Virus record (IMG/VR): IMGVR_UViG_3300047463_000166
Location: 95-64,094 of that record
From: a virus
Lineage: Duplodnaviria; Caudoviricetes
Length of the DNA stretch: 64,000 nucleotides
Reading direction: 5' to 3' (one strand)
In this document: positions 1-64,000 of the stretch, in pieces
Position numbering within the stretch: the stretch's first letter is position 1
Layout: every line of letters starts with the position of its first letter
Notes under the pieces: generated by a model
Told to the model about the DNA's origin: nothing
The model's database searches: none
The model's input: the letters and a program-made list of their open reading frames with translations, nothing else
Translations under genes and position numbers: made by a program

Positions 1-152
1 CGCTACAGTGTAGCGTTCTGCTACTGCCAGGTGCCGCAAAAAGGGGCAGGTGTGGCAAAAAAGGGCAAAAACCTCGGTCAGAGATTAGAAACCGAGGTTT
101 GAGGGGAAAAACCAGATCCAGAAAATCGTCCGATTTTTTGAAACCTCAAAAT

Positions 153-183
153 GGTGAGTCGATTTTTCAAATTTGAAACTTTT
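153..183 (+). repeat. Dispersed 31-bp motif copy 1 (GGTGAGTC-N3-TTTTCAAATTTGAAACTTTT), putative operator
   Basis: Near-identical copies at 153, 1203 and 14723; contains perfect palindrome TTTCAAATTTGAAA. Confidence 0.85.
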
Positions 184-190
184 CAGGCTC

Positions 191-216
191 CGGCAGAGGT
201 CGGCAGAGGTCGGCAG
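191..216 (+). repeat. Tandem repeat CGGCAGAGGT x2.6
   Basis: Read directly. Confidence 0.8.
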
Positions 217-736
217 TAACCGGCTTCGATCGACGATCGACCCCCACCCCCTCTTTCAAGGTCAGCTTATATATACACCTGTGCGTGTGGAGTATATGGT
301 ACAACATCCATACATCCATGAGTACTATGTGATGTCGTGGACTCATGGATGTGATTCTTTTCTTCCATAGTAGTATATATAAGCTAAGGTCTGACCTACC
401 CCTTGTATTATCAATCACTTGAAAGTAAAAACTATATCCGACCATTTTAGTCTCCAATGGCTCGTGGATGTTCACGATTTGAACACCCTCTCAGTGTAAG
501 GTGTTTTTTGTTTTTTGGTCGTGGTGGTCGTGTGATGTCATGGCTGCGCTCACCCGCCACACGAGATCCGAGACCCGAAACTCCTCTCATCATTCTCTAA
601 TCTTGTGTCTCCTTTTTACAACAGTGTATCTAAACAGATACAACATTGACCGTGTGAGGCGATCGTGCTGGCACTGTGGCGCAATGCCGACACACCAAAC
701 ACGAGAATCGAGACACGAAATTCGTGTTGCGTGATA

Positions 737-784
737 AATCAAGGGCTTATGATTTGGCACCGTCATTGCAATCTATTCCGGTAT
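737..784 (+). promoter_or_regulatory. sigma54-type promoter P1 with IHF-like box
   Basis: AATCAAGGGCTTA (737-749); TGGCAC-CGTCA-TTGCA (755-770); GTAT at 781; RBS GGAGG before ATG 793. Confidence 0.8.
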
Positions 785-792
785 AGGAGGGC

Positions 793-987
793 ATGAAGAT
801 GATGAAAGTGACGGCAAATAACGAGACGTTGGATGTGATCGTCGAGCAGGATTGGCCGAGCGGCTTTCGAGCAGTGGTGGATGGGGAGTATGACGGAGCA
901 CCGGACGGCGGCGGGTTCATCGGGTTTGGATCCACACAGGACGATGCGATTTCCGACCTGTTAGATAAGCGGGGAGGTCTGCTATGA
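793..987 (+). CDS. Hypothetical early protein
   Basis: RBS GGAGG, coupled to next ORF. Confidence 0.7.
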   Translation: MKMMKVTANNETLDVIVEQDWPSGFRAVVDGEYDGAPDGGGFIGFGSTQDDAISDLLDKRGGLL

Positions 988-1199
988 ATATCAACCCAAT
1001 CATCCGGCAGATCGTCAACAGGCAGCACGTCGGCACGTCGAACCGGCGCGTCATTCGAGCAGTGGTCAACGGGCTTCGGCGCAAGGCGCGGACCTTCCTG
1101 GCGATGCCGAAGGCCGACCGGCGAGCCCTGATGGAACAGGCGATCGAGGCCCACCGTCAGAATCGAGCCGAGTACCGATGGGTGATGGGCGGACACTGA
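984..1199 (+). CDS. Hypothetical basic protein
   Basis: RBS GGAGG, ATGA overlap. Confidence 0.7.
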   Translation: MNINPIIRQIVNRQHVGTSNRRVIRAVVNGLRRKARTFLAMPKADRRALMEQAIEAHRQNRAEYRWVMGGH

Positions 1200-1202
1200 G
1201 TT

Positions 1203-1233
1203 GGTGAGTCTGGTTTTCAAATTTGAAACTTTT
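1203..1233 (+). repeat. Dispersed 31-bp palindromic motif copy 2
   Basis: GGTGAGTCTGGTTTTCAAATTTGAAACTTTT directly before RBS GGAGG. Confidence 0.85.
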
Positions 1234-1243
1234 GGAGGTCTTT

Positions 1244-1621
1244 ATGACAAAACGATCGATGGAGTATCAGTACGGGTTTTTCTCTCCGGCGAAGTACACG
1301 GCGACGAAGTGGAACACGGCGACGAAGTGGAACACGGCTGAGGACAAACAGAAGTTTGCGATGGGCTTGGTGCGGTTTGTCGAGTCCGGCTTCAAGCCGA
1401 CGCGATTCTGCAAACCGTTGTACAGGCGGCTCTCGATGTGCTTCGGGCATATGGCTCACTTCAACAAAGACGGCTTTTATGACGAATGGTTCAGCACACC
1501 TGAGAAGCAAGCGGAGTGGGTGAACTACGTCGTGAGCCGGACGGTGTACGGAGATCCGGCGTGGACCTACAGCGACGTGGAGCGGGACATTCAAAAGTAC
1601 GTAAGGGAGAATTGGCTATGA
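1244..1621 (+). CDS. Hypothetical protein with 18-bp internal duplication (TATKWN x2)
   Basis: RBS GGAGG at 1234; repeat 1296-1338. Confidence 0.75.
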   Translation: MTKRSMEYQYGFFSPAKYTATKWNTATKWNTAEDKQKFAMGLVRFVESGFKPTRFCKPLYRRLSMCFGHMAHFNKDGFYDEWFSTPEKQAEWVNYVVSRTVYGDPAWTYSDVERDIQKYVRENWL

Positions 1622-1857
1622 GAGACTTCACCAAAACACGCGAAGCTCTGGCCCTGTATGACGCGAAACTGGCTGTGTTCAACAGCGACACTTTCAGCCG
1701 TATGCGGAACGGTGAAGCGGTGAAGTTCTTCATTGAGATGCAAGAGATTGAACGCGAAGTATGCAGACAGTTCATTGTTGCGACGAGCGATGTCAACAGT
1801 CCTGACAAGGCGAATGTCATCGGCGTTGGCCCCTGGCTGAGAAAGATGGTGCAGTGA
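1618..1857 (+). CDS. Hypothetical protein
   Basis: ATG overlapping upstream stop, RBS GGAG. Confidence 0.65.
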   Translation: MRDFTKTREALALYDAKLAVFNSDTFSRMRNGEAVKFFIEMQEIEREVCRQFIVATSDVNSPDKANVIGVGPWLRKMVQ

Positions 1858-2060
1858 TGAGTCCAGCGGAACACGAAGCACGAGACAAGGCAGCCGAGGT
1901 CATCTCTGAGTTGTACGGCAGACATGGAGCGGGATTCGTGTTGGCGACGATCGGGAAACGAATCAAGCAGACAAACGATCAATTCAATCTGTCGGCGGTC
2001 GAGCGTGAGCGGGTGAGGGAGTGGGCGCATGACATGCTCGAAGAAGGGATTCAATCATGA
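1854..2060 (+). CDS. Hypothetical protein
   Basis: Operon coupling. Confidence 0.6.
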   Translation: MMSPAEHEARDKAAEVISELYGRHGAGFVLATIGKRIKQTNDQFNLSAVERERVREWAHDMLEEGIQS

Positions 2061-2533
2061 ACATCACGTCAAAATATAATTTGGGACAGAAAGTATTTGC
2101 CGGTGGGTGTATGTGGCACTCGGTCCCTGTGACCTGTGAGCATTGCAACGGTTCCGGTATGGTGACGGTGTCAACGGCTCTTGAGTCGTATGACGTGCCA
2201 TGCCCCTACTGCGAACAGGACATGTGGGGCCAGAAGTCGAAAGGGTACACGAATGCGTACGATTTTCATACGTACGTACATTCCCTGACGATCGGAGAAG
2301 TGAGAGTCGAGATCAGCAACACGAAACACGATGCTGAATACATGTGTGAGGAGACTGGTGTCGGCTCCGGCACACTGCACGACGAGAAGAATTTGTTCGA
2401 GACCTATGAGGAAGCCAAGGCACACGGCGAAGCACAAGCGGCTGAGGCCAAGCTCCGGCGTGAAGAAGAGGCTAAGAAGAAAGCCAAGACCAAAACCACC
2501 AGAGTCCGAACCAAGAAGGAGACCAAACCATGA
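2057..2533 (+). CDS. Zinc-finger protein (DnaJ-like CxxCxGxG...CPxC)
   Basis: CEHCNGSG and CPYC motifs, basic tail. Confidence 0.7.
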   Translation: MNITSKYNLGQKVFAGGCMWHSVPVTCEHCNGSGMVTVSTALESYDVPCPYCEQDMWGQKSKGYTNAYDFHTYVHSLTIGEVRVEISNTKHDAEYMCEETGVGSGTLHDEKNLFETYEEAKAHGEAQAAEAKLRREEEAKKKAKTKTTRVRTKKETKP

Positions 2534-3006
2534 GCGGGATTGTCAGGAGTGAGCACAACGGGTACGAGATCACCGGCAGTGTGTACAGTGATGGGTCGAT
2601 TGGTTGGAAGTGCGAGGCACTTGAAAAGAATCCTCGGTGGAATGGTGACTCCGAAGAGTTTTCTGACTACCGAGAAATCGTCAAAGCGTTGGATGAGTAC
2701 GATCTGAAGTGTCGAAAGAGTTTTGTGAATAAGGCGGCGTACATCGTCAACCGTGGGTGGAGCACAGAGAAGTCTTCACACGAGAAGGTTGAAGTCACGT
2801 CACTGACTCCGAACGGCAAAGAGGCGTGGGTCAAGACAAAAGAGGGAAAACTACGGAAGCTCGATGTGGCGTCACTCTACGACAGTGAAGAGGGCGTCAG
2901 GTTCTTTGTAAAGTATCTTGATGAAACGATTGCCAAGTTTGAGCGTGACAAGCAAGCCTTACAGGATGCGCTCGATAAGACGCGGTGGGTGCCGAAACAT
3001 GAATGA
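2530..3006 (+). CDS. Hypothetical protein
   Basis: RBS AAGGAG, ATGA overlap. Confidence 0.7.
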   Translation: MSGIVRSEHNGYEITGSVYSDGSIGWKCEALEKNPRWNGDSEEFSDYREIVKALDEYDLKCRKSFVNKAAYIVNRGWSTEKSSHEKVEVTSLTPNGKEAWVKTKEGKLRKLDVASLYDSEEGVRFFVKYLDETIAKFERDKQALQDALDKTRWVPKHE

Positions 3007-3292
3007 TGTTGTCTACATCTACGCTCAAGATATGCACTGGTCGAGAACACTGTGCATGGCACCGATCAGCGATCGAGCACATAACCGAGATCAGGCGATA
3101 GATTGTGCTGGCCGGTTATACAAACGGGAGAAGGTACCGATCGTCATCGCAAGAAACGATTACGGGTATTTTGCGGTGGGAAAGATCGGGACAATCGACA
3201 GTAAGGAATTTCCCTACTGTGTCGGCGTCGTGGACGGCAGCGTATTTCTGTCGGCATCGAACATCAAGGAATGGGGTGTCCCATGTGGCTGA
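2999..3292 (+). CDS. Hypothetical protein
   Basis: ATG overlapping upstream ORF end. Confidence 0.55.
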   Translation: MNDVVYIYAQDMHWSRTLCMAPISDRAHNRDQAIDCAGRLYKREKVPIVIARNDYGYFAVGKIGTIDSKEFPYCVGVVDGSVFLSASNIKEWGVPCG

Positions 3293-3458
3293 ACATTGTG
3301 GTCAATCAAATCGAGCAAGTGTGGAACGTCGTTATTGAAGGACAGAGACGGACTTCGTTTACAGCGTGTAACACGAAAGGCGAAGCCGAAGATCTGGCAT
3401 CCATTGCCCGAAAGAATCCGACTGTGGCAGAAAAACTTCATGGAGTGAGGGACTAATC

Positions 3459-3896
3459 ATGTACTACGATGAAATTGAAGGGCCAAAGATGCGGAGGCGT
3501 GTACCACGAAAGAGGACGCTTGAATTGTACCGTGAAGCATTGACAGCGGTTCAAGCATACAAGAAGCAGGTACTCGACCAGGACGCATTCGGTGACGATG
3601 TCCTGTCGATCATGGCGACGGCAAGAGGGATCGATGAGTGGAAGCGGTACGATTGGGAGTGTGTTTCTGATGCGTGTCGGACGCTTCGGATACCTATTGA
3701 AGTTGGCATGCAGTTGACGGCGTGGAACGATCAGCTTGATGATGAGAAGGAACTCGACGAGATCAAGCACAAAGATTCTGGTCATGAGCGGTGGTTGTAC
3801 TTTTGCTGGCGTCTTCAACGTGAGATCCAAGCCCTTGAGTCTACACCCAGGAGACCAAGGCGGAAACGACTGAAGATTGTGAAGGTGATTTCATGA
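3459..3896 (+). CDS. Hypothetical protein
   Basis: RBS, ORF track. Confidence 0.65.
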   Translation: MYYDEIEGPKMRRRVPRKRTLELYREALTAVQAYKKQVLDQDAFGDDVLSIMATARGIDEWKRYDWECVSDACRTLRIPIEVGMQLTAWNDQLDDEKELDEIKHKDSGHERWLYFCWRLQREIQALESTPRRPRRKRLKIVKVIS

Positions 3897-4034
3897 GGCA
3901 TTTTGGTGTGGTGGTGAGGCGTTTTTGTCAGAAAAAGCGGTCGGGTTTTCTGAAGGAAATCACCGGAAACGAAAGGAATTCAACGGCTTACGTTTTTGGG
4001 TTTCTGGCACCCTGTTTGCAGTACATAGAGGTAT
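3894..4034 (+). promoter_or_regulatory. sigma54-type promoter P2 with two TGAGGC enhancer-like sites and IHF-like box
   Basis: TGAGGC at 3894 and 3915; ATTCAACGGCTTA 3978-3990; TGGCAC-CCTGT-TTGCA 4005-4020; GTAT at 4031. Confidence 0.8.
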
Positions 4035-4239
4035 GAATACGGCAATCAAAAGAGTGCGGCTGACCGGCAAGACGAAGAAAGGCCGAGAGCGGGTCAGGCA
4101 GCATGGGGAGTTTTGGAGAGTGGACATGCCTCACAGTCTCCCCCACCGGCTCTTGTTGTGGTCAGAGAAGACCGGAGATTGGCGGTGGGTGTGGATCGAC
4201 GGAGAGGACGTGCATTTTACCGTGGAGGTACTATCATGA
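4033..4239 (+). CDS. Hypothetical protein (probably leaderless)
   Basis: ATG at predicted +3 of P2. Confidence 0.6.
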   Translation: MNTAIKRVRLTGKTKKGRERVRQHGEFWRVDMPHSLPHRLLLWSEKTGDWRWVWIDGEDVHFTVEVLS

Positions 4240-4493
4240 GATATGTAGTTGAGTACAAGGAAGACAATTACGACAATTACGACGAACCTGAGCAGTACCA
4301 CATCCGAGACACGAAGCACGATACGGTCGTTGCGCGTATCCAAGTCGGAGACTTCACCGGCAAGGTGGAGTGGAACAACGGGACCATCGAAGCTCGGAAG
4401 AGGGTGTGTGAGAAGGAGTTGGAAGCGATCGACATGGCGCGGTTGCTTTGCGAGAAGCTCGAAGTGGCTGCGGAGAACGGGGAAGTGGCGTGA
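4236..4493 (+). CDS. Hypothetical protein
   Basis: RBS GGAGG, ATGA overlap. Confidence 0.65.
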   Translation: MRYVVEYKEDNYDNYDEPEQYHIRDTKHDTVVARIQVGDFTGKVEWNNGTIEARKRVCEKELEAIDMARLLCEKLEVAAENGEVA

Positions 4494-4558
4494 CAAGTTC
4501 AAAGGCTGTCGGGATTCTGTTGGCGTGGTTCAAACACAATACACAAAAGGAGCGAGAC

Positions 4559-5056
4559 ATGAGCACCAGAGCACAAATTGGGTTTTACGAGGATTCTGTT
4601 CTGATCACGAGGCCGGTTGCGTTGCTGTACCAGCACAGTGATGGGTATCCGACCAGCAAAGAGGCCGGTGTCGTGCGGACGTTGCTGGATATTTGCGTTC
4701 CGCTGATCGAGCAGCGTGGCTCGTACGATCCTGAGTATTTGGCGGCTCAGACGTTGTTCCGCCTCATTGCACAGTATGACAGCGGTGCAAGTGGGCTCGG
4801 TTTCGGCATCGGCAATGCACTGCATGGTGACGTACGGTTCTACTATGCGGTGACGGAGTATGGTGTGTATGTGTACGATGCGCGAAACATGACGGACGAA
4901 TCACTCAATAATCTCTCCGACTTAGAGCCGATGTTCTTCACAAGCTGGAAGAACGACGAGAAGCGGCGGAAGGTTGAGAAGGAGATCGAGAATCTTGAGG
5001 CGCGGTTGAAGGATCTGTACAACCAGCGCAAGAGTGTGCAGGTGGCGAGGCCGTAA
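4559..5056 (+). CDS. Conserved phage hypothetical protein (MSTR...HSDGYP type)
   Basis: RBS AAGGAG; YQHSDGYP motif. Confidence 0.7.
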   Translation: MSTRAQIGFYEDSVLITRPVALLYQHSDGYPTSKEAGVVRTLLDICVPLIEQRGSYDPEYLAAQTLFRLIAQYDSGASGLGFGIGNALHGDVRFYYAVTEYGVYVYDARNMTDESLNNLSDLEPMFFTSWKNDEKRRKVEKEIENLEARLKDLYNQRKSVQVARP

Positions 5057-5295
5057 TGCTCGGAGTCACGTTGCAAATCAATGACAGGATCATCGCATTC
5101 TACGAAATACGTAGAATGCACCCTGTCTGCAAGGCGATGCAGGACAACACGATCGGCACGTACAATGTGTACGACGACGAAGGCAACCTGATGATCGAGG
5201 GAATCAAGCATCGGTACGGAGATCGGGCGGAAGCGTTGGTTGCCAAAGTGATGCGGAAAGTGAGGAAGCTGCAATGCGTCCAGACACGGGCTTAG
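5056..5295 (+). CDS. Hypothetical protein
   Basis: TAATG coupling. Confidence 0.6.
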   Translation: MLGVTLQINDRIIAFYEIRRMHPVCKAMQDNTIGTYNVYDDEGNLMIEGIKHRYGDRAEALVAKVMRKVRKLQCVQTRA

Positions 5296-5431
5296 ATGCG
5301 TCGAAGGGTATTTTCTTAGGGATCATTCTGTCGATCGTGTTGTGGTTTTTGTTGACAGTCGGAGCCGTAACGGTGTGGTCATGGCTGACAGGATAACATC
5401 GGTACGTGACTGTGTCGCGCATTTGTCTGAG

Positions 5432-5506
5432 GCCGACGTAGCTCAATGCTAGAGCAGCGGTTTTGTAAACCGTAGGTTGGAGGTTGGAGTCCTCTCGTCG
5501 GCTCCA
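5432..5506 (+). tRNA. trnT: tRNA-Thr(TGT)
   Basis: Acceptor GCCGACG/CGTCGGC, anticodon loop TTTGTAA, encoded CCA; atypical C19/G56. Confidence 0.9.
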
Positions 5507-5565
5507 TTCGAGCGGTTCCGGTACGACGGCAGGATGTTGAACGATCCACACGCAGGAGACAAGAA

Positions 5566-5751
5566 ATGAAGCCGATCAAGCGCGTCTATCAACTTGTATT
5601 CGTGATGGTCGATGGTGCTGAATTGGCCTGGAAGATCTTCTCGAAGATCGAACACTACGAAGCCTACGTAGAAGGACTGAACGAGGAACACCTGAGACGG
5701 TTGGGCATCTCTGCCATTCGATATCGGATGCACTACATCGATCCTTTTTGA
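5566..5751 (+). CDS. Hypothetical protein between tRNAs
   Basis: RBS AGGAG. Confidence 0.55.
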   Translation: MKPIKRVYQLVFVMVDGAELAWKIFSKIEHYEAYVEGLNEEHLRRLGISAIRYRMHYIDPF

Positions 5752-5920
5752 GGAGGTCATCATGGTAATGGCACGAAAGAATGAAGACCATAAGTTGCTT
5801 GTGCTCGAAGGGTTCAAGAGTGGGTTCATCAAAGTGGCAATCGACTATGATGATGTGCCCCATGAGGAAGTTGAGGCGTGGACGATGGAGTTGATCGAGG
5901 TTCTGAATAACAACGGATTT

Positions 5921-5997
5921 TGAGGGGTAGCCAAGTCGGTACGGCACCTGACTGTTAATCAGGAGACGCGCAGGTTCGAGCCCTGCCCCCTCAGCCA
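5921..5997 (+). tRNA. trnN: tRNA-Asn(GTT)
   Basis: Acceptor TGAGGGG/CCCCTCA, CCTGA-CTGTTAA-TCAGG, T-loop TTCGAGC, G73, CCA. Confidence 0.93.
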
Positions 5998-6007
5998 GAT
6001 ATCGATT

Positions 6008-6120
6008 TGGGTGATGGTGTAGAAAAACACAACCGGCATGGACCGGAAGAGGTAGGAGTTTCTAGGGATAGACGTTGGAACGTACGTGAAATCCCCTAGC
6101 TTGTACTACTCATCCAGCCA
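6008..6120 (+). ncRNA. tRNA-like RNA with shortened anticodon arm and hairpin-extended T arm
   Basis: TGGGTGA/TCATCCA-G-CCA acceptor; GTGT/ACAC D stem; CCGG/CCGG stem; GTAG/CTAC T stem enclosing a CTAGGGAT/ATCCCCTAG hairpin. Confidence 0.65.
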
Positions 6121-6141
6121 CACACGAAAGACAAGATTGTA

Positions 6142-6693
6142 ATGCGTTGGTTTATCTCAGATCTACATTTCGGCCATAAAAACATCATTGACTACTGTTC
6201 GAGGCCGTTCCAAACCGCTGAAGAGATGGATCAGGCAATGATGGTGCAATGGAATATGACCATTCATCCTAGCGATCATGTGTACGTTGTCGGTGACGTG
6301 ACGTTCCACAGTCCAATGAAGACCGATGAGATCCTCAGCCAGTTGAACGGGCGTAAGCATTTGATCTTAGGTAATCACGACTACGATAAGAAGAAGGTGA
6401 AGGGCTCGCTCAAGAAACACTTCGTTACGATCGAAGAATCAGCGACGTTATTGATCGAGGGAGTGAATCGGAACGCGCATATGTTTCACTTCCCGTTATT
6501 TGGACGAGATAAGCCGAAGATCATGATCCACGGTCACTCACATAATTATCGACCGTTGGTGACGACATACGAGACGACAGGGCAGCTACTTATCAACGTG
6601 AGCGTCGAGAACATTGAGTACACGCCGATATCCGAAACACGAATTGCGGATTTCATCAAACAGCATGAGGATTTTCTGAGGGGTGGGGTATGA
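6142..6693 (+). CDS. Calcineurin-like metallophosphoesterase
   Basis: SDLHFGH, VGDV, GNHD and HGHSH motifs. Confidence 0.9.
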   Translation: MRWFISDLHFGHKNIIDYCSRPFQTAEEMDQAMMVQWNMTIHPSDHVYVVGDVTFHSPMKTDEILSQLNGRKHLILGNHDYDKKKVKGSLKKHFVTIEESATLLIEGVNRNAHMFHFPLFGRDKPKIMIHGHSHNYRPLVTTYETTGQLLINVSVENIEYTPISETRIADFIKQHEDFLRGGV

Positions 6694-9984: not shown

Positions 9985-10120
9985 GGCGTTTTAGTCGTTT
10001 ATGAGGCGAAAAGGTGTCACAGAGGGGAAGAAATAAGGACCACCTTATTTCTCCCCCTAGTAAAATCAAGCACTTACATTCCTTTCGTTTGGGCATCTGG
10101 TTTGCAGTATAGGAGAGTAT
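9982..10120 (+). promoter_or_regulatory. sigma54-type promoter P3 with two TGAGGC sites, hairpin and IHF-like box
   Basis: TGAGGC at 9982 and 10002; AATCAAGCACTTA 10064-10076; GGGCAT-CTGGT-TTGCA 10091-10106; GTAT at 10117. Confidence 0.8.
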
Positions 10121-13615: not shown

Positions 13616-13645
13616 AGGCACCGTTATTGCTTGGACGTTCAGTAT
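13616..13645 (+). promoter_or_regulatory. sigma54-type promoter P4
   Basis: AGGCAC-CGTTA-TTGCT, GTAT at 13642, ATG at 13644. Confidence 0.7.
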
Positions 13646-60178: not shown

Positions 60179-61532
60179 CACCAATCTCCTTCTTCGCTGG
60201 CACAGGTTTCGGCTTCTGTGGATTCTGTTGATCTTGTGGCGGACCATCAGACGAGCCACCAGGAGCCATTGAAGGCGCAGCAACGACTACCTTGCCGGTC
60301 TCATCGACTTGATTCACATTCTGCATCACATAACTCGCGTTTCCATTCGGCACGTCGTCGAGTCCAAGTTTGAAGCGTTTGTTTAGTCTGTTGAGCGGAT
60401 AACCCATCTGCCACAACTTGAAGGCCATTTCGACCTTCTCGACCATATCACCTTGCAGGGCTTCAACGTCGGTGAGATCGAACTCTGCGTAGATGTTACC
60501 GGTACCAGACACCGAGAATAATTGCGACCACATGACCCATTCGATCAACTTCATTTTCGGCACAAGGGTCTTCACCCAAAATTCTCTCGCCTGAACCTTC
60601 GCCACGGCGAAATTGACATCAGTCCACACACCAAGTTCCAACTTCGGCACTTTGAAACACGCGAGCACTTCATCGCGGTTCCACTGCTTCTGGTTGAGAA
60701 ACTCCATGTCCTTCTGCGATACGGAGAGTTGCTTGTACTTCGCACCGCCCTCAAGCAGTGCCAGCGTGTGCGCTTTATTGACGCCTTGATGATGCTCACG
60801 GAACTGAGTCAGCATCCGATTGAACTGTTCGTCCGTCAAATCCTCTTCGATCTCGATGACGCCCCCAGGCAGCGCACTATTCGAGAAGAACGCCTTGTTG
60901 TACTCTGATGCGAGTTGATCTTGGTCGATGCCAAGCTGTGCGGCTTCGATTGGTGCAAGCCCACGAATGGGGTCATACGGATTGAAGAGTTTGAAGTGAC
61001 ATACTTCCCACTTTGCAAATGGTGTATCGACACGATCGCCTCTCTCATTGATCGTCTCCGTCTTCCAGCCGGTCAACTTCTCAGCTTTATTCTTGACAGG
61101 CTCAAAGATTCTTCCATCGAACGGCTGAATCTCTCGCGGCACCGCAGTCGGCTCATCACGATCGAGCACCCACATACACTCTCCGAACAGCAGCAAATAC
61201 GTGACGGTCGCTTCCATCAACTGTTGCAAGCCCATCTCAGCGTTGGGTTTCTCAAACAGTGTTGACCATTGATTCGATTGTCGGTCTGCGGCTTTCTTGT
61301 CTCGTGAATTTTTCCACGCGAGGGGTGTCTGTGAAATGTTCAACGCGACGGATTCAACGGCTCCATGCACCCACGCATGAACTCTATACGGTTCAGTGAC
61401 CTGATTTCCGCCCAAAATGGCCGATAAACTGGTCATGCGGTTTGTCCCCGCCAGCGTGAATTGCGAATCAGATAACCGCTGAATGATCGGGATACTTTTC
61501 TGAACAATCCAATTCTCAAGCCACTTATACAT
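60159..61532 (-). CDS. Portal protein (HK97 family)
   Basis: KPN, GECMW, GLAPI, FFSNSALPGG, LEGG, DMEF. Confidence 0.92.
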   Translation of the reverse strand: MYKWLENWIVQKSIPIIQRLSDSQFTLAGTNRMTSLSAILGGNQVTEPYRVHAWVHGAVESVALNISQTPLAWKNSRDKKAADRQSNQWSTLFEKPNAEMGLQQLMEATVTYLLLFGECMWVLDRDEPTAVPREIQPFDGRIFEPVKNKAEKLTGWKTETINERGDRVDTPFAKWEVCHFKLFNPYDPIRGLAPIEAAQLGIDQDQLASEYNKAFFSNSALPGGVIEIEEDLTDEQFNRMLTQFREHHQGVNKAHTLALLEGGAKYKQLSVSQKDMEFLNQKQWNRDEVLACFKVPKLELGVWTDVNFAVAKVQAREFWVKTLVPKMKLIEWVMWSQLFSVSGTGNIYAEFDLTDVEALQGDMVEKVEMAFKLWQMGYPLNRLNKRFKLGLDDVPNGNASYVMQNVNQVDETGKVVVAAPSMAPGGSSDGPPQDQQNPQKPKPVPAKKEIGDANTET

Positions 61533-62874
61533 GCAGGAACCTCACTCGTGGTGTTCGACGTTCAACAATGAGCCACGTCAGCGCAAAGACCAGCGCATCG
61601 ACTCTGTCCGGTGACTGTCCCTTCTTCGCTTGCTCTTCAGGGTTGAATGTCACCATCTGTTCTTCCAACTGCTCGAAGTATTCTGTGTGGAAGATACGCT
61701 TTTGCTCGTATAACGCGCCGACCGGCTCTGCACGAAGACGTTTTCCCTTCGAGGAGTGCAGCTTCATGAACGATACGGCGAGACCACCCTTGGCTTGTCG
61801 CAACGTATATTCCACTAGGTCGCCGCCATTATTGACTTCTCCTAATACCTTATCCGCTTTCCATTTATGATACAAGTGGATTATCAACGCGGCCCACTCA
61901 TTCGGCTTGTAGTGACCGCTTCGGTCTTCAAGCACATCGGCATTCTGCCCGTTGTTATAGCTGCCACACACCACGATACCGGTCTCATCACTCCCTTCTC
62001 CGGCACTCACCGCAGGGTCTACCGCGATACAGATCCGCTCGTATTGATCGACCGGCATCGGCCCTTGCTTCTTCATGATGTTGTCTTCAGAGAAGATGGC
62101 TCCTTCAACCGCAGCCAGGAACAGCCCTTCAATTTCCTGCTTACCGAGTCTCGTGCCTTGGTACCGCTCAAGGATCGCCTTGATGAAGGAGTCCGGTAGG
62201 TTTTTCCTGTTGTCCAACATCGAGCCCCTCGTCAACACGAGGCCAGGAAGTTTGCGGACTCGATTCATGAAGATCGTCGGCTTCGGTGTCGTGGTAATGA
62301 TCGTCTGCGGATTGGAACCAAGGCGCATCCCAAACTGCAACATGTCCCACGTCCCCTCGTCGGCCCACGCTGCCAACTCGTCGCACCACGCTTTTTCATG
62401 TTGTGGGCCACGCAACCGCTCGCTCTCTTCAGCAGAGTACATCATGCCGATGGCTCCGTTGGGCCAGATGATTCGCCGCTTTGAGGGTTCGTACTTAGGG
62501 AGAAACTCGTCACGCGAGCAGCCGATGATGCCGGACTCGCCGTTGACCATCACGTCACGCACGTCGGCAGCAGTCGGCGCAACAAGGGCCACACGTTTGA
62601 CGCCGTGGTTTTCTACTTGATCGCGGATCCACTCGGCTCCCGTTCGTGTTTTTCCAAAACCCCGTCCGGCCTGGATCAGCCAGTAGACCCACTCATCACT
62701 CGGCGGCGGGAGTTGATTGTCCCTCGCCCACAACGACCACTCCTTTTTCAGATACTCCCGCTCCGTCTCGCTCACGTTGCTCAGAAGCTCGTCTCTTTCC
62801 TGCACGGTCAAGCGCGTTAGCGAGTTTATCTCGTGCGGAGTTTCGTTCAGCACGTTGCTGTGCGTCGAGGTCAT
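61525..62874 (-). CDS. terL: Terminase large subunit
   Basis: AGRGFGKT, LRGPQ, WCDE, TTTP, AVDPA, SPDRVDA. Confidence 0.95.
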   Translation of the reverse strand: MTSTHSNVLNETPHEINSLTRLTVQERDELLSNVSETEREYLKKEWSLWARDNQLPPPSDEWVYWLIQAGRGFGKTRTGAEWIRDQVENHGVKRVALVAPTAADVRDVMVNGESGIIGCSRDEFLPKYEPSKRRIIWPNGAIGMMYSAEESERLRGPQHEKAWCDELAAWADEGTWDMLQFGMRLGSNPQTIITTTPKPTIFMNRVRKLPGLVLTRGSMLDNRKNLPDSFIKAILERYQGTRLGKQEIEGLFLAAVEGAIFSEDNIMKKQGPMPVDQYERICIAVDPAVSAGEGSDETGIVVCGSYNNGQNADVLEDRSGHYKPNEWAALIIHLYHKWKADKVLGEVNNGGDLVEYTLRQAKGGLAVSFMKLHSSKGKRLRAEPVGALYEQKRIFHTEYFEQLEEQMVTFNPEEQAKKGQSPDRVDALVFALTWLIVERRTPRVRFLHV

Positions 62875-63301
62875 TTTTCTCTACCTTCTCTGTTTGTTCA
62901 AGGTATTGCTTTCCAAGGTGAACGAGCATTCGCTCGCTCCCCATCATCGCTGCGTCCCACTGTGCCAAGCGGAGTCTTGCCTTCGCACGTTCGCGTCCCC
63001 GCGCCCACACAGGAGAAAACGTCACGTTGAATTGTTCTTTTGTGAGGCCGGTGATTGCAATCACTTCACTCGGCTCACACATGAGGCTCCCTAATCGTTC
63101 CACGAGTTGCAAGTCACGCTCAGTCGGACACGTCGGATCGTCCATGATGGACACATCCATCGCATAGACACGTTCGGACGCAGGAAGTTGCGCTTCGGCT
63201 GGCATCAGCACATTCACTCGATCGAGCGTTCGTAATCGACCGCCATTACGCGACGGGTTCTCCGGCACAGCAAGATTGGTATCTACGGTTGATTCACTCA
63301 T
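62696..63301 (-). CDS. terS: Terminase small subunit
   Basis: HTH-like EVIAITG, LRLAQW, MLVHLGKQYLEQ; upstream of terL. Confidence 0.75.
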   Translation of the reverse strand: MSESTVDTNLAVPENPSRNGGRLRTLDRVNVLMPAEAQLPASERVYAMDVSIMDDPTCPTERDLQLVERLGSLMCEPSEVIAITGLTKEQFNVTFSPVWARGRERAKARLRLAQWDAAMMGSERMLVHLGKQYLEQTEKVEKNDLDAQQRAERNSARDKLANALDRAGKRRASEQRERDGAGVSEKGVVVVGEGQSTPAAE

Positions 63302-63336: not shown

Positions 63337-63505
63337 GTGATTAGCGCAGAACGTGATCTGTTTGTCAAGTTTTGTGTCTCGTTTTACATGCTTCGTGTTC
63401 CGAACCTTCATGTTTTTTTCCTGTGTATATTTTAGGGGGTCTGCGTATTACTCGGAGGGGGTCGAAAAAATTTTCCACAAGTGGTGGGGGTGTGCGATTT
63501 CTACC

Positions 63506-63603
63506 ACACTATTAGTTGTGTGTTGCATTTATGCACTACGTATGTGCGATTTCTACCACACTATATGTGGTGTTGTAATAATGATACACACTATATGTAG
63601 TTC
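63506..63603. promoter_or_regulatory. Three NrdR-box-like sites
   Basis: ACACTATTAGTTGTGT (63506), ACACTATATGTGGTGT (63558), ACACTATATGTAGTTC (63588) versus consensus acaCwAtATaTwGtgt. Confidence 0.55.
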
Positions 63604-63607
63604 GACA

Positions 63608-63881
63608 TGCACGTTTCATGCCTCATATCGCCTTGCAAGAATCATGCCAAACGAAATCCGAGGCTTGAAACACGAATGGCATAAGACTTGCATTGGCATA
63701 GGAATTGCATATCTCGGAATTCGCGTTTCGGTATAAGACTTGCAAGGCACAAAACTTGCAAGGCACAAAACTTGCAAGGCGGAATTCGCGTTTCGTGTCT
63801 GGCAAGAAAATTGCAAGGCATGAAAAATGCAATAGCAAAAAACGTGTTACGAGTTTCGCGTTTTGTGGCATGAGTTTTGCA
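63608..63881. repeat. Array of about ten sigma54 -24/-12-like 16-mers
   Basis: + strand: 63677, 63694, 63729, 63745, 63761, 63800, 63816, 63866; - strand: 63634-63649, 63608-63623. Confidence 0.8.
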
Positions 63882-64000
63882 TGGCGCGTACCATCTTTCC
63901 TCACTGTGTTAAAAAGATCACACTGTTGTAAAAAGCACACATTGTACTTCTGAGGTAGGTTTAATCCTACTTTTAAGGTATAGCACCGACTACAAAAACG

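What the first reader, a model, noticed from the sequence alone, without database searches (positions are those of the whole stretch)
63608..63881. Dense array of about ten sigma54 (-24/-12) boxes at the genome end: a possible RpoN decoy or loading array
Seen: eight + strand 16-mers: TGGCATAAGACTTGCA 63677, TGGCATAGGAATTGCA 63694, CGGTATAAGACTTGCA 63729, AGGCACAAAACTTGCA 63745 and 63761, TGGCAAGAAAATTGCA 63800, AGGCATGAAAAATGCA 63816, TGGCATGAGTTTTGCA 63866. Two more lie on the - strand: TGGCATGATTCTTGCA and AGGCATGAAACGTGCA. The GG-N10-GC spacing is kept in all while the 5-nt spacers diverge, so selection acts on the sigma54 geometry rather than on a simple repeat. Known: TGGCAC-N5-TTGCW is the sigma54 consensus, and sigma54 holoenzyme forms stable closed complexes without an activator. 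Several boxes abut head-to-tail at 16-17 bp, too tight to all work as promoters at once, and those checked lack the GTAT +1 of P1-P4. Inference: a cis-acting sponge that titrates host sigma54 as genomes replicate, or a platform concentrating holoenzyme on incoming DNA near the packaging end.
Basis: partly seen in the sequence, partly recalled or inferred. Interest (0 to 1): 0.9.

Follow-up and report, generated by a model that had tools for sequence, protein, structure and literature searches.

The report
Sigma-54 site array in phage
An uncultured water phage packs eleven look-alike docking sites for the bacterial sigma-54 RNA polymerase into the gene-free control region between its early and late genes; related and unrelated phages do the same, and nobody has yet shown who binds the sites or what they do.

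Summary
That is 11 boxes in 300 bp, against at most 3 in 200 simulated windows. The array sits in the gene-free region upstream of the putative small-terminase gene. It is at a contig end, not a proven genome end.

Six related phages (eight loci) keep 4-11 boxes at the same place. The arrays cannot be aligned, and they are swapped between strains whose flanks are 97.5% identical.

The same motif forms four single, strand-correct promoters in this phage, three with an IHF-like site. Its 67.8-kb relative has the same promoters.

Pattern scans found similar arrays in 42 + 24 viral stretches, against 12 in 596 billion bases of cellular genomes. These phages share no candidate binder and encode no sigma-54 or activator.

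- Best reading (0.45): a fast-evolving, back-to-back cluster of host sigma-54 promoter/docking sites at the early/late divide.
- The decoy idea is not excluded (0.2).
- An array of sites for a phage protein is the main rival (0.2).

This scan met such arrays before in three other phages (e1-5846035, e1-6073067, e1-6084223).

The parts
63608..63623 (-). sigma-54-type box AGGCATGAAACGTGCA, points to terS
   Evidence: 2 mismatches to TGGCAY-N5-TTGCW
63634..63649 (-). sigma-54-type box TGGCATGATTCTTGCA, points to terS; the same 16-mer recurs in arrays of unrelated phages
   Evidence: (L117, L131, L113)
63677..63692 (+). box TGGCATAAGACTTGCA, points away from terS
   Evidence: differs at 1 of 16 positions from the Salmonella argT site printed in Table 3 of PMC3844500
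63694..63709 (+). box TGGCATAGGAATTGCA, 17 bp after the previous one
63729..63744 (+). box CGGTATAAGACTTGCA
63745..63760 (+). box AGGCACAAAACTTGCA, first of two identical 16-bp units
   Evidence: (period 16, 2.7 copies, 100% matches)
63761..63776 (+). box AGGCACAAAACTTGCA, second copy (recent tandem duplication)
63800..63815 (+). box TGGCAAGAAAATTGCA
63816..63831 (+). box AGGCATGAAAAATGCA, abuts the previous box
63866..63881 (+). outermost box TGGCATGAGTTTTGCA. It is the only box with a positional counterpart and shared flanks (..TTCG-box-TGGCGCG) in L005 and L022; L020 keeps a looser version (..TTCG-box-TGTCGCC).
63878..63893 (-). weak eleventh box TGGTACGCGCCATGCA overlapping the outermost box, kept in L005
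63715..63730 (.). interleaved repeat CGGAATTCGCGTTTCG (copy 1 of 3; copies 2 and 3 at 63780-63795 and 63850-63865). It belongs to the motif family TTCGNGTTTCG, which is also clustered upstream of P1.
   Evidence: 24 matches against 6.72 expected
63395..63500 (.). conserved, alignable non-coding block (T-run, TGTATATT, G-runs, AAAATTTTCC) between terS and the array
   Evidence: 31 invariant columns in 7 sequences, whereas the arrays do not align
62696..63301 (-). putative small terminase (named by position only, overlaps terL 61525-62874). No Pfam or PHROG family beyond one chance-level Pfam hit (E 0.0058, below cut-off).
755..770 (+). P1, a single box of the same motif, with an IHF-like site upstream and GTAT at +12. 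P2, P3 and P4 lie at 4005, 10091 and 13616.

Best explanation
The array is a fast-evolving, back-to-back cluster of promoter-type docking sites for the host's sigma-54 RNA polymerase. It lies in the divergent control region between the late (terminase/structural, leftward) and early (rightward) gene blocks.

Shown:
- The boxes match the sigma-54 -24/-12 consensus.
- The same motif forms strand-correct single promoters elsewhere in this phage.
- The boxes are kept while everything around them turns over.
- Their orientation is structured.

Inferred:
- Host sigma-54 holoenzyme binds them.
- The two boxes nearest terS start late transcription, and one or more of the eight rightward boxes start rightward transcription.
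- New boxes arise by tandem duplication of box-plus-spacer units.
- Multiplicity is kept because more sites capture a scarce holoenzyme. Only some sites can be occupied at once, because 16-17 bp is tighter than a holoenzyme footprint.
- How the closed complexes are opened is unknown, because the phage carries no recognisable activator.
For: 1. Motif. In 57 boxes from 7 loci the consensus is W-GG-Y-A-Y-G/a-N4-W-TGCA, with G at position 7 in 39 of 57. In the 29 ChIP-supported intergenic Salmonella sites printed in Table 3 of PMC3844500, my own count gives G at position 7 in 19 of 29 and A at position 12 in 3 of 29. One window box differs from the argT site at 1 of 16 positions, and an L022 box equals the hycA 16-mer.

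2. Same motif as real-looking promoters. The six matches outside the array are all on the + strand of the + strand gene block. Four of them lie in gaps before genes and have GTAT exactly 12 nt after GC. Three of the four have a WATCAA-N4-TTA (IHF-like) site just upstream. The complete 67.8-kb relative G002 has 13 forward and 2 reverse matches (controls 3 and 3), with counterparts of P1-P4.

3. Conservation of place, not of sequence. There are 4-11 boxes 200-580 bp upstream of terS in L005, L022, L020, L006, L024 and L023/L008. No locus has more than 2 among the other 90 loci then held.

4. Orientation. Back-to-back conformers are 10/11, 8/9, 9/11, 10/11 and 5/6.

5. A host factor rather than a phage factor. 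Similar arrays occur in phages with GC 34-61% that share only DNA polymerase A (9 of 12) and no small protein. GP88, the commonest neighbour, is in 8 of 29 records.

6. Four of five MAGs that hold arrays of 5 or more boxes encode a Sigma54_DBD protein; the fifth is a 0.6-Mb fragment.

7. Precedent. Pseudomonas phage YuA depends on sigma-70 and sigma-54 (passage of PMC10914365).

8. In G011 a triple array shares its upstream context with a single box 85 nt before the first gene of an operon.
Against: - No binding or transcript data exist.
- The host is unknown, so its rpoN is unproven.
- Neither this phage nor 31 array-bearing records encode a Sigma54_activat domain over the cut-off, so the obligatory activator is missing from the picture.
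- None of the 11 array boxes has the GTAT start motif of P1-P4.
- Spacing of 16-17 bp, and the overlapping or convergent pairs (63866+/63878-; L147-type arrays), cannot all work as promoters at once.
- The orientation tests are weak one by one (316-1569 of 5000 label shuffles reach the observed value), and the arrays are related.
- In the wider census half of the non-redundant arrays are of mixed orientation (27 of 54).
- At a divergent junction 'downstream gene co-oriented' (18 of 24) is nearly automatic.
Confidence: 0.45

Rival explanations
1. Decoy, reservoir or loading array. The boxes bind sigma-54 or its holoenzyme as silent closed complexes and do not fire. As genomes multiply the sites either drain the host's small sigma-54 pool, shutting host sigma-54 regulons, or hold a local store of holoenzyme beside the phage's own promoters.
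For: - Closed complexes of sigma-54 holoenzyme are stable and silent without an activator (Background of PMC3844500; abstract of PMC4591121 in the listing).
- No activator gene is found in this phage or in 31 array phages.
- Number and spacing are free to vary: 4-11 boxes at 16-28 bp, and arrays are swapped between 97.5%-identical strains. That fits 'count matters, architecture does not'.
- Some boxes abut or overlap.
- Array boxes lack the GTAT of the working-looking promoters.
- Similar arrays gave 42 stretches in the viral collection, whose size the tools do not state, against 12 in 596 billion bases of cellular genomes.
Against: - Orientation is structured (42 of 48 back-to-back), which a sponge does not need.
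- The phage's own P1-P4 would be starved by a true sink.
- In simple arrays such as G010 and G011 the 3-4 boxes all point at the downstream genes.
- There is no measurement of affinity or copy number.
Confidence: 0.2
2. Binding sites of a phage-encoded protein that merely resemble the sigma-54 consensus: small-terminase recognition repeats (pac/cos-type) or iterons of a replication origin in the large intergenic region.
For: - The array lies 300-580 bp upstream of the putative terS, and stays there in the relatives.
- By single-linkage BLASTP clustering, 21 of the 65 pattern-found loci fall in one TerL family with the window's, although only four of them hit the window's TerL directly, at 27% identity.
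- Another phage has its array directly upstream of a Terminase_6 gene.
- Other iteron-like repeats fill the same region in relatives (AAACTACGTAG runs in L023 and L024).
- The two half-sites kGCA lie one helical turn apart, as a tandem dimer would read them.
Against: - Strains with a 99%-identical TerS carry different arrays (224 bp replaced by 88 bp). Number, spacing and orientation vary, unlike known pac/cos or iteron sets.
- The same motif sits in front of early operons far from terS, on the coding strand only.
- Arrays also occur beside a helicase with no terminase near (L150 and L165), and in phages with no shared protein family except DNA polymerase A.
- A well-conserved alignable block (63395-63500) is a better packaging-site candidate.
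Confidence: 0.2
3. Selectively neutral tandem-repeat expansion of one ancestral promoter. Only one box per direction matters and the rest are decaying copies.
For: - There are identical adjacent units (63745/63761; 28-bp units in L020).
- Only the outermost + box has a positional counterpart in relatives.
- Assemblies break in the array.
Against: - Decaying copies would lose GG, A5 and TGCA as fast as the spacers do, and they do not.
- Arrays recur independently in very different phages.
Confidence: 0.05

Closest known systems
Bacterial sigma-54 (RpoN) enhancer-dependent -24/-12 promoters and binding sites, e.g. the Salmonella argT, hycA, pspG and hypA sites (Table 3 of PMC3844500)
   Same: The consensus TGGCAY(G)-N4/5-TTGCW is the same, with the same tolerated variants (T at position 6, A at position 12). 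Single copies in this phage show the classical layout of an IHF-like site, then -24/-12, then a start about 12 nt on.
   Different: Here 11 copies lie in 286 bp, on both strands, some abutting. No activator gene or proven enhancer is known, and the host is unknown. The cellular genomes scanned held almost no such arrays (12 stretches in 596 billion bases).
Sigma-54-dependent promoters of Pseudomonas phage YuA (Ceyssens et al. 2008, as cited in PMC10914365)
   Same: A siphovirus of similar size that uses host sigma-54 for part of its programme (passage read). That three such promoters serve the particle and lysis genes is my recall of the 2008 abstract, not a call.
   Different: YuA has single promoters; no array is described in what I read. 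There is no sequence relation to this phage.
Tandem early promoter clusters at the leading end of phage genomes (T7 A1-A3 and the like; recalled, no call)
   Same: Several promoters for the host polymerase are stacked at the start of the early region.
   Different: Those are sigma-70 promoters that fire on their own, are spaced far enough apart to work together, and point one way.
Repeated decoy sites for transcription factors (PMC3322331, PMC7686491; search listing and abstracts only)
   Same: Many high-affinity sites in tandem could titrate a scarce DNA-binding protein.
   Different: Those systems are synthetic or eukaryotic. No natural sigma-factor decoy turned up in my five searches.
Small-terminase recognition repeats (lambda cosB R sites, SPP1 pacL/pacR; recalled, no call)
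   Same: Repeats lie next to the terminase genes.
   Different: Those sets are fixed in number, spacing and orientation and go with their terminase. Here the arrays change between strains with the same TerS.

Membership tests
sigma-54 (-24/-12) promoter / binding site | GG and (T)GC elements 10 bp apart within TGGCAC-N5-TTGCW | tested here: met
   All 11 boxes have GG-N10-GC. Seven of the 11 have at most 1 mismatch to TGGCAY-N5-TTGCW. The variation matches the Salmonella sites in Table 3 of PMC3844500.
sigma-54 (-24/-12) promoter / binding site | Bound by sigma-54 holoenzyme | not testable with these tools
   Needs EMSA, footprinting or ChIP.
sigma-54 (-24/-12) promoter / binding site | Host encodes rpoN | tested here: inconclusive
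   The host is unknown. No relative was found in 185,579 species genomes. Four of five MAGs with similar arrays have Sigma54_DBD, but whether those contigs belong to those bins was not checked.
sigma-54 (-24/-12) promoter / binding site | Activation by an AAA+ enhancer-binding protein at an upstream site | tested here: inconclusive
   There is no PF00158 in this phage and 0 of 31 array records are over the cut-off. A host activator is possible. The repeat TTCGNGTTTCG is enriched (24 against 6.72 expected) and clusters at P1 and in the array, but its role is unknown.
sigma-54 (-24/-12) promoter / binding site | Transcript start about 12 nt after GC, with a co-oriented gene downstream | tested here: inconclusive
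   Orientation fits, but there are no 5'-end data. GTAT at +12 is present in P1-P4 and in 0 of 11 array boxes.
pac/cos small-terminase site set | Fixed set of repeats that goes with the terminase | tested here: not met
   TerS is 99% identical in L005, yet the array segment is replaced. Relatives have 4-11 boxes at 16-28 bp spacing. Arrays also lie beside non-terminase genes.
iteron-type replication origin | Co-oriented direct repeats in helical phase, next to an initiator gene and an AT-rich stretch | tested here: not met
   The boxes lie on both strands at mixed 16, 17, 26 and 28 bp spacings. No shared initiator is found among 12 array phages. The same motif also sits before operons.
decoy / sponge site array | Sites bind but do not fire, orientation is irrelevant, and the factor is measurably titrated | not testable with these tools
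   Only orientation could be examined. It is structured (42 of 48), which leans against a pure sponge.

The most novel reading that the evidence does not exclude
Dense arrays of sigma-54 docking sites are a widespread, phage-specific device that needs no phage activator. They park silent host sigma-54 holoenzyme on phage DNA, either to drain the host's sigma-54 pool and so switch off sigma-54-dependent stress, nitrogen, motility or repair regulons as genomes replicate, or to keep a private store of polymerase and a barrier at the early/late divide. Rapid turnover of the arrays would then reflect tuning of site number to each host's sigma-54 level.
Probability: 0.2. Interest if true: 0.85.

Novelty: new variant of a known kind. 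Interest (0 to 1): 0.65.

Why it matters
Sigma-54 is the one bacterial sigma factor that binds promoters silently and needs an ATP-driven activator. Phage use of it is documented, as far as I read, only for single promoters (YuA).

Here the docking site is multiplied up to 11-fold in this clade, and up to 15 boxes in 400 bp elsewhere. It is kept under selection while the surrounding DNA is replaced even between near-identical strains. It recurs in phages of very different GC content and gene content that carry no activator.

Whichever reading is right, the arrays point to an undescribed way in which many uncultured phages engage the host transcription machinery. They give a short, synthesisable DNA fragment with which it can be tested in E. 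coli or Salmonella without knowing the host.

Tried and rejected
Tools and searches that gave nothing usable:
- TerS relatives in 185,579 species genomes: none. So there is no prophage relative and no host name.
- Cultured phages: BLAST of the array and of the L107 array against 50,697 phage records found nothing meaningful. This method is insensitive to short motifs.
- Five deposited TerL relatives (46-47% identity and below) show no enrichment of the motif. A locus of a sixth deposited record (L174) was fetched but not scanned.
- The closest TerL relatives infect many phyla, so they give no host.
- The protein-atlas search on the ribonucleotide reductase returned only viral clusters.
- Rfam: only two tRNAs in the window, nothing in the array.
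- The sigma-70 and terminator scans of the region gave counts at the shuffle level for promoters. The terminator-like hits (4 against 1.1 expected) are the repeats themselves.
- The putative TerS has no PHROG family and only one chance-level Pfam hit (Spectrin_Anc-1_2, E 0.0058, 17.3 bits against a cut-off of 28). It is named by position only.

Ideas rejected or left weak:
- GP88 (PF17338) as the box binder: rejected. It neighbours arrays in 17 of the 65 pattern-found loci (L105-L169) but is present in only 8 of 29 whole records, and is absent from this record.
- CACGAGACAC as an enhancer: only weakly enriched (116 against 85 expected), so no claim is made.

RNA:
- Two runs filed as RNA hold parts of the phage, but they are contigs from a random-PCR library. 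They cannot show transcription, starts or strand.
- Their lack of cover over 63541-63822 is no evidence of anything.
- Runs that I did not lay are not used for habitat.

Papers:
- Five full-text searches found no description of sigma-54 site arrays or sigma-factor decoys in phages. Subscription journals are not covered.
- I read passages only of PMC10914365 and PMC3844500 (the latter including the printed Table 3).
- PMC4591121, PMC3322331 and PMC7686491 were seen only as listing or abstract.
- Ceyssens et al. 2008 is recalled and was seen only as cited.
- Supplements were not opened. Additional file 2 of PMC3844500, with the 27 promoters behind its matrix, could refine the comparison.
- The consensus strings for sigma-54 and IHF, the holoenzyme footprint size and the low cellular sigma-54 level are recalled.

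Full report
**What is there.** The window is bases 95-64094 of a 64,094-base viral record classed linear and 95% complete. Genes run rightward from about 0.8 to 31 kb. These are small early genes, tRNAs, RNA ligase, ThyX, an SNF2 helicase, a primase, a UvrD helicase, DNA polymerase A and a class II reductase. Genes run leftward from 31 to 63.3 kb: capsid, portal, terL at 61525-62874 and a 201-aa ORF at 62696-63301 that I call terS by position only. The finding lies in the gene-free stretch to the right of terS.

All ten 16-mers are at the stated coordinates, and an eleventh weak one overlaps the last. TGGCAY-N5-TTGCW with up to 1 mismatch occurs 13 times against 3.42 +/- 1.91 expected, and 0 of 100 shuffles reach 13. 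Eleven boxes fall in 300 bp, against a largest cluster of 3 in 200 simulations. Three copies of a second repeat, CGGAATTCGCGTTTCG, are interleaved with the boxes.

**Contig end, not genome end.** L005 is a metagenome contig 97.5% identical over 4.8 kb of structural genes, with a TerS 99% identical. It runs on past the window's last base into four small genes, one of them of the GP88 family, and ends in a GAAGGCT heptamer run. The record therefore probably broke at repeats and lacks a few per cent (inference).

**Relatives.** A profile of 32 TerS sequences, the window's and 31 homologues, brought in 17 metagenome and 80 viral loci.
- Clusters of boxes (GG/GC core, up to 2 mismatches, 300-bp window) are found only in the nearer relatives: 11 (L022), 11 (L020), 9 (L005), 6 (L006, contig cut), 4 (L024) and 4 (L023/L008). 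All lie 200-580 bp upstream of terS.
- Relatives with 58-62% TerS identity, and the distant loci, have at most 2.
- The arrays cannot be aligned with one another, whereas a 100-bp block between terS and the array aligns across all seven sequences with 31 invariant columns.
- Between the window and L005, 224 bp of array are replaced by 88 other bases.
- In laid contigs of other samples, one contig replaces 63489-63894 with 242 other letters. Two others carry the L005-type letters, and assemblies break inside the array.

So the segment is a hot spot of turnover inside otherwise near-identical genomes.

**What is kept.** Among 57 boxes from seven loci T13 is 57/57, A5 is 56/57, position 16 is A or T in 57/57 and G7 is 39/57. 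The five spacer positions carry 0.18-0.71 bits. GG and GC were required by my filter. As a check that does not assume the motif, I counted all dimer-gap-dimer pairs in the 699 bp upstream of terS in six phages. GG-N10-GC scores 59 against 19.6 expected (z 9.2), beside its neighbours GC-N8-TG and TG-N12-CA. A second family (CG-N6-GT) comes from the interleaved repeat. Adjacent identical units (16 bp in the window, 28 bp in L020) show that arrays grow by tandem duplication.

**Who reads the motif.** The six matches outside the array are all on the + strand of the + strand block.
- Four lie before genes and have GTAT exactly 12 nt after GC. Three of the four have an IHF-like WATCAA-N4-TTA site just upstream.
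- The complete 67.8-kb relative G002 has 13 forward and 2 reverse matches (reversed-pattern controls 3 and 3). It has counterparts of P1-P4, and at two of them the IHF-like site (one with one mismatch) and GGTAT are kept.
- The motif therefore behaves as a promoter element. The printed Salmonella sites include near-twins of the array boxes.
- The phage has no Sigma54_DBD and no Sigma54_activat domain.

**Wider census.** Two double-box patterns found 42 and 24 stretches in the viral collection.
- 62 of these 65 loci hold 3 or more boxes in 400 bp, 31 hold 5 or more, and one 147-kb phage has 49 boxes in 6.5 kb. Several loci are duplicates or near-duplicates of one another.
- The same 28-bp pattern found 12 stretches in 596 billion bases of bacterial and archaeal genomes. 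Five of them are real arrays in MAG contigs, and four of those five MAGs encode Sigma54_DBD.
- Of 31 array-bearing viral records, 0 have Sigma54_DBD and 0 have Sigma54_activat over the cut-off, with one weak hit.
- Twelve near-complete array phages span GC 34-61% and share only DNA polymerase A (9 of 12). No other family is in more than 4.
- GP88, the commonest neighbour, is in 8 of 29 records.

A factor common to such different phages is more likely to come from the host, and the sigma-54 consensus is conserved across phyla (established knowledge).

**Promoters or parking places?** In the five largest arrays of this clade the boxes nearest terS point to terS and the distal ones point away: 10/11, 8/9, 9/11, 10/11 and 5/6. 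The terS-ward boxes of the relatives mostly end in wATGCA (10 of 13) while the others end in CTTGCA. This is what divergent promoter clusters would look like.

Each array alone is weak evidence (316-1569 of 5000 label shuffles reach the observed value), and the arrays are kin. Among 54 non-redundant arrays elsewhere, 27 point one way. Of those, 18 of the 24 with a called ORF downstream face a co-oriented ORF, and 17 of 25 lie at divergent junctions, where that result is nearly automatic. In G011 a triple array lies 480 nt upstream of a single box that has the same upstream context and sits 85 nt before the first gene.

Against a simple promoter reading:
- spacings of 16-17 bp;
- overlapping or convergent pairs;
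- no GTAT at +12 in any array box;
- no activator gene.

**Verdict.**
- The most likely reading is a back-to-back cluster of host sigma-54 promoter/docking sites at the early/late divide (0.45).
- A silent decoy or reservoir is not excluded (0.2).
- Sites for a phage protein (terminase or origin) are the main rival (0.2). They are weakened by the array swaps under an unchanged TerS, by the operon-proximal single sites, and by arrays beside non-terminase genes.

Three earlier follow-ups of this scan reported similar arrays in other uncultured phages and likewise left the binder open. My census was made independently of them. Five literature searches found no published description.

Noticed in passing
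window 755-770, 4005-4020, 10091-10106, 13616-13631: Four single sigma-54-type promoters on the + strand with GTAT exactly at +12. Three have an IHF-like WATCAA-N4-TTA site just upstream and TGAGGCG repeats further up. Counterparts exist in the relative G002 at 980, 4299, 8853 and 12406.
   Followed up: partly
window 63395-63500: A 100-bp non-coding block (T-run, TGTATATT, two G-runs, AAAATTTTCC) is conserved and alignable in all seven relatives, unlike the array. It is a candidate packaging or late-control site.
   Followed up: partly
window 63491-63521, 63543-63573 and 63587-63601: Direct repeats TGTGCGATTTCTACCACACTAT (2 copies) and CACACTATATGT-type (3 copies) lie between the conserved block and the array. 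L022 has a CTACCACA counterpart.
   Followed up: no
window 63902-63945: A 19-bp tandem repeat CACTGTGTTAAAAAGATCA (2.3 copies) lies just right of the array. It is followed by AAGGTATAG, a motif kept about 100-130 nt right of the last box in L022, L020, L023 and L024.
   Followed up: no
whole window; e.g. 569, 709, 721, 6633, 50902, 53183, 63720, 63785: The motif TTCGNGTTTCG (up to 1 mismatch) occurs 24 times against 6.7 expected. Its reverse complement lies on the sense strand in 16 of 18 copies inside the two gene blocks, often near gene junctions, and it clusters at P1 and in the array.
   Followed up: partly
L005 1-1705 (beyond the window's end): The near-identical strain continues with four small genes including a GP88-family gene, and ends in a GAAGGCT heptamer run. 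The record of this window probably lacks this part. The order GP88 <- array -> terminase recurs in phages whose TerL is only 27% identical (the L147 group).
   Followed up: partly
L107 (147.5-kb viral contig), 1-6511: There are 49 boxes in 6.5 kb. About 25 form a bidirectional array with a recurring CTACCATGGTAG palindrome, and the rest are single sites every few hundred bases on both strands.
   Followed up: no
L004 1037-1110 (G001, 52-kb phage): Three boxes TGGCAYGATACTTGCA lie in a divergent intergenic region and are the only strong matches in that genome. The first gene starts about 120 nt downstream.
   Followed up: partly
L002 125-200 and 249-280, 1298-1330 (record coordinates): A hairpin followed by a T-run reads as a terminator on the - strand at about 160-195. 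A palindromic element GGTGAGTC..TTTCAAATTTGAAA occurs at least twice, and a long inverted repeat lies at 361-480.
   Followed up: no
L023 / L024, 300-900 bp beyond the boxes: Long runs of AAACTACGTAG-type repeats (iteron-like) lie beyond the boxes. The window's record start has GCTACG repeats at a comparable place, which may mark a replication origin.
   Followed up: no
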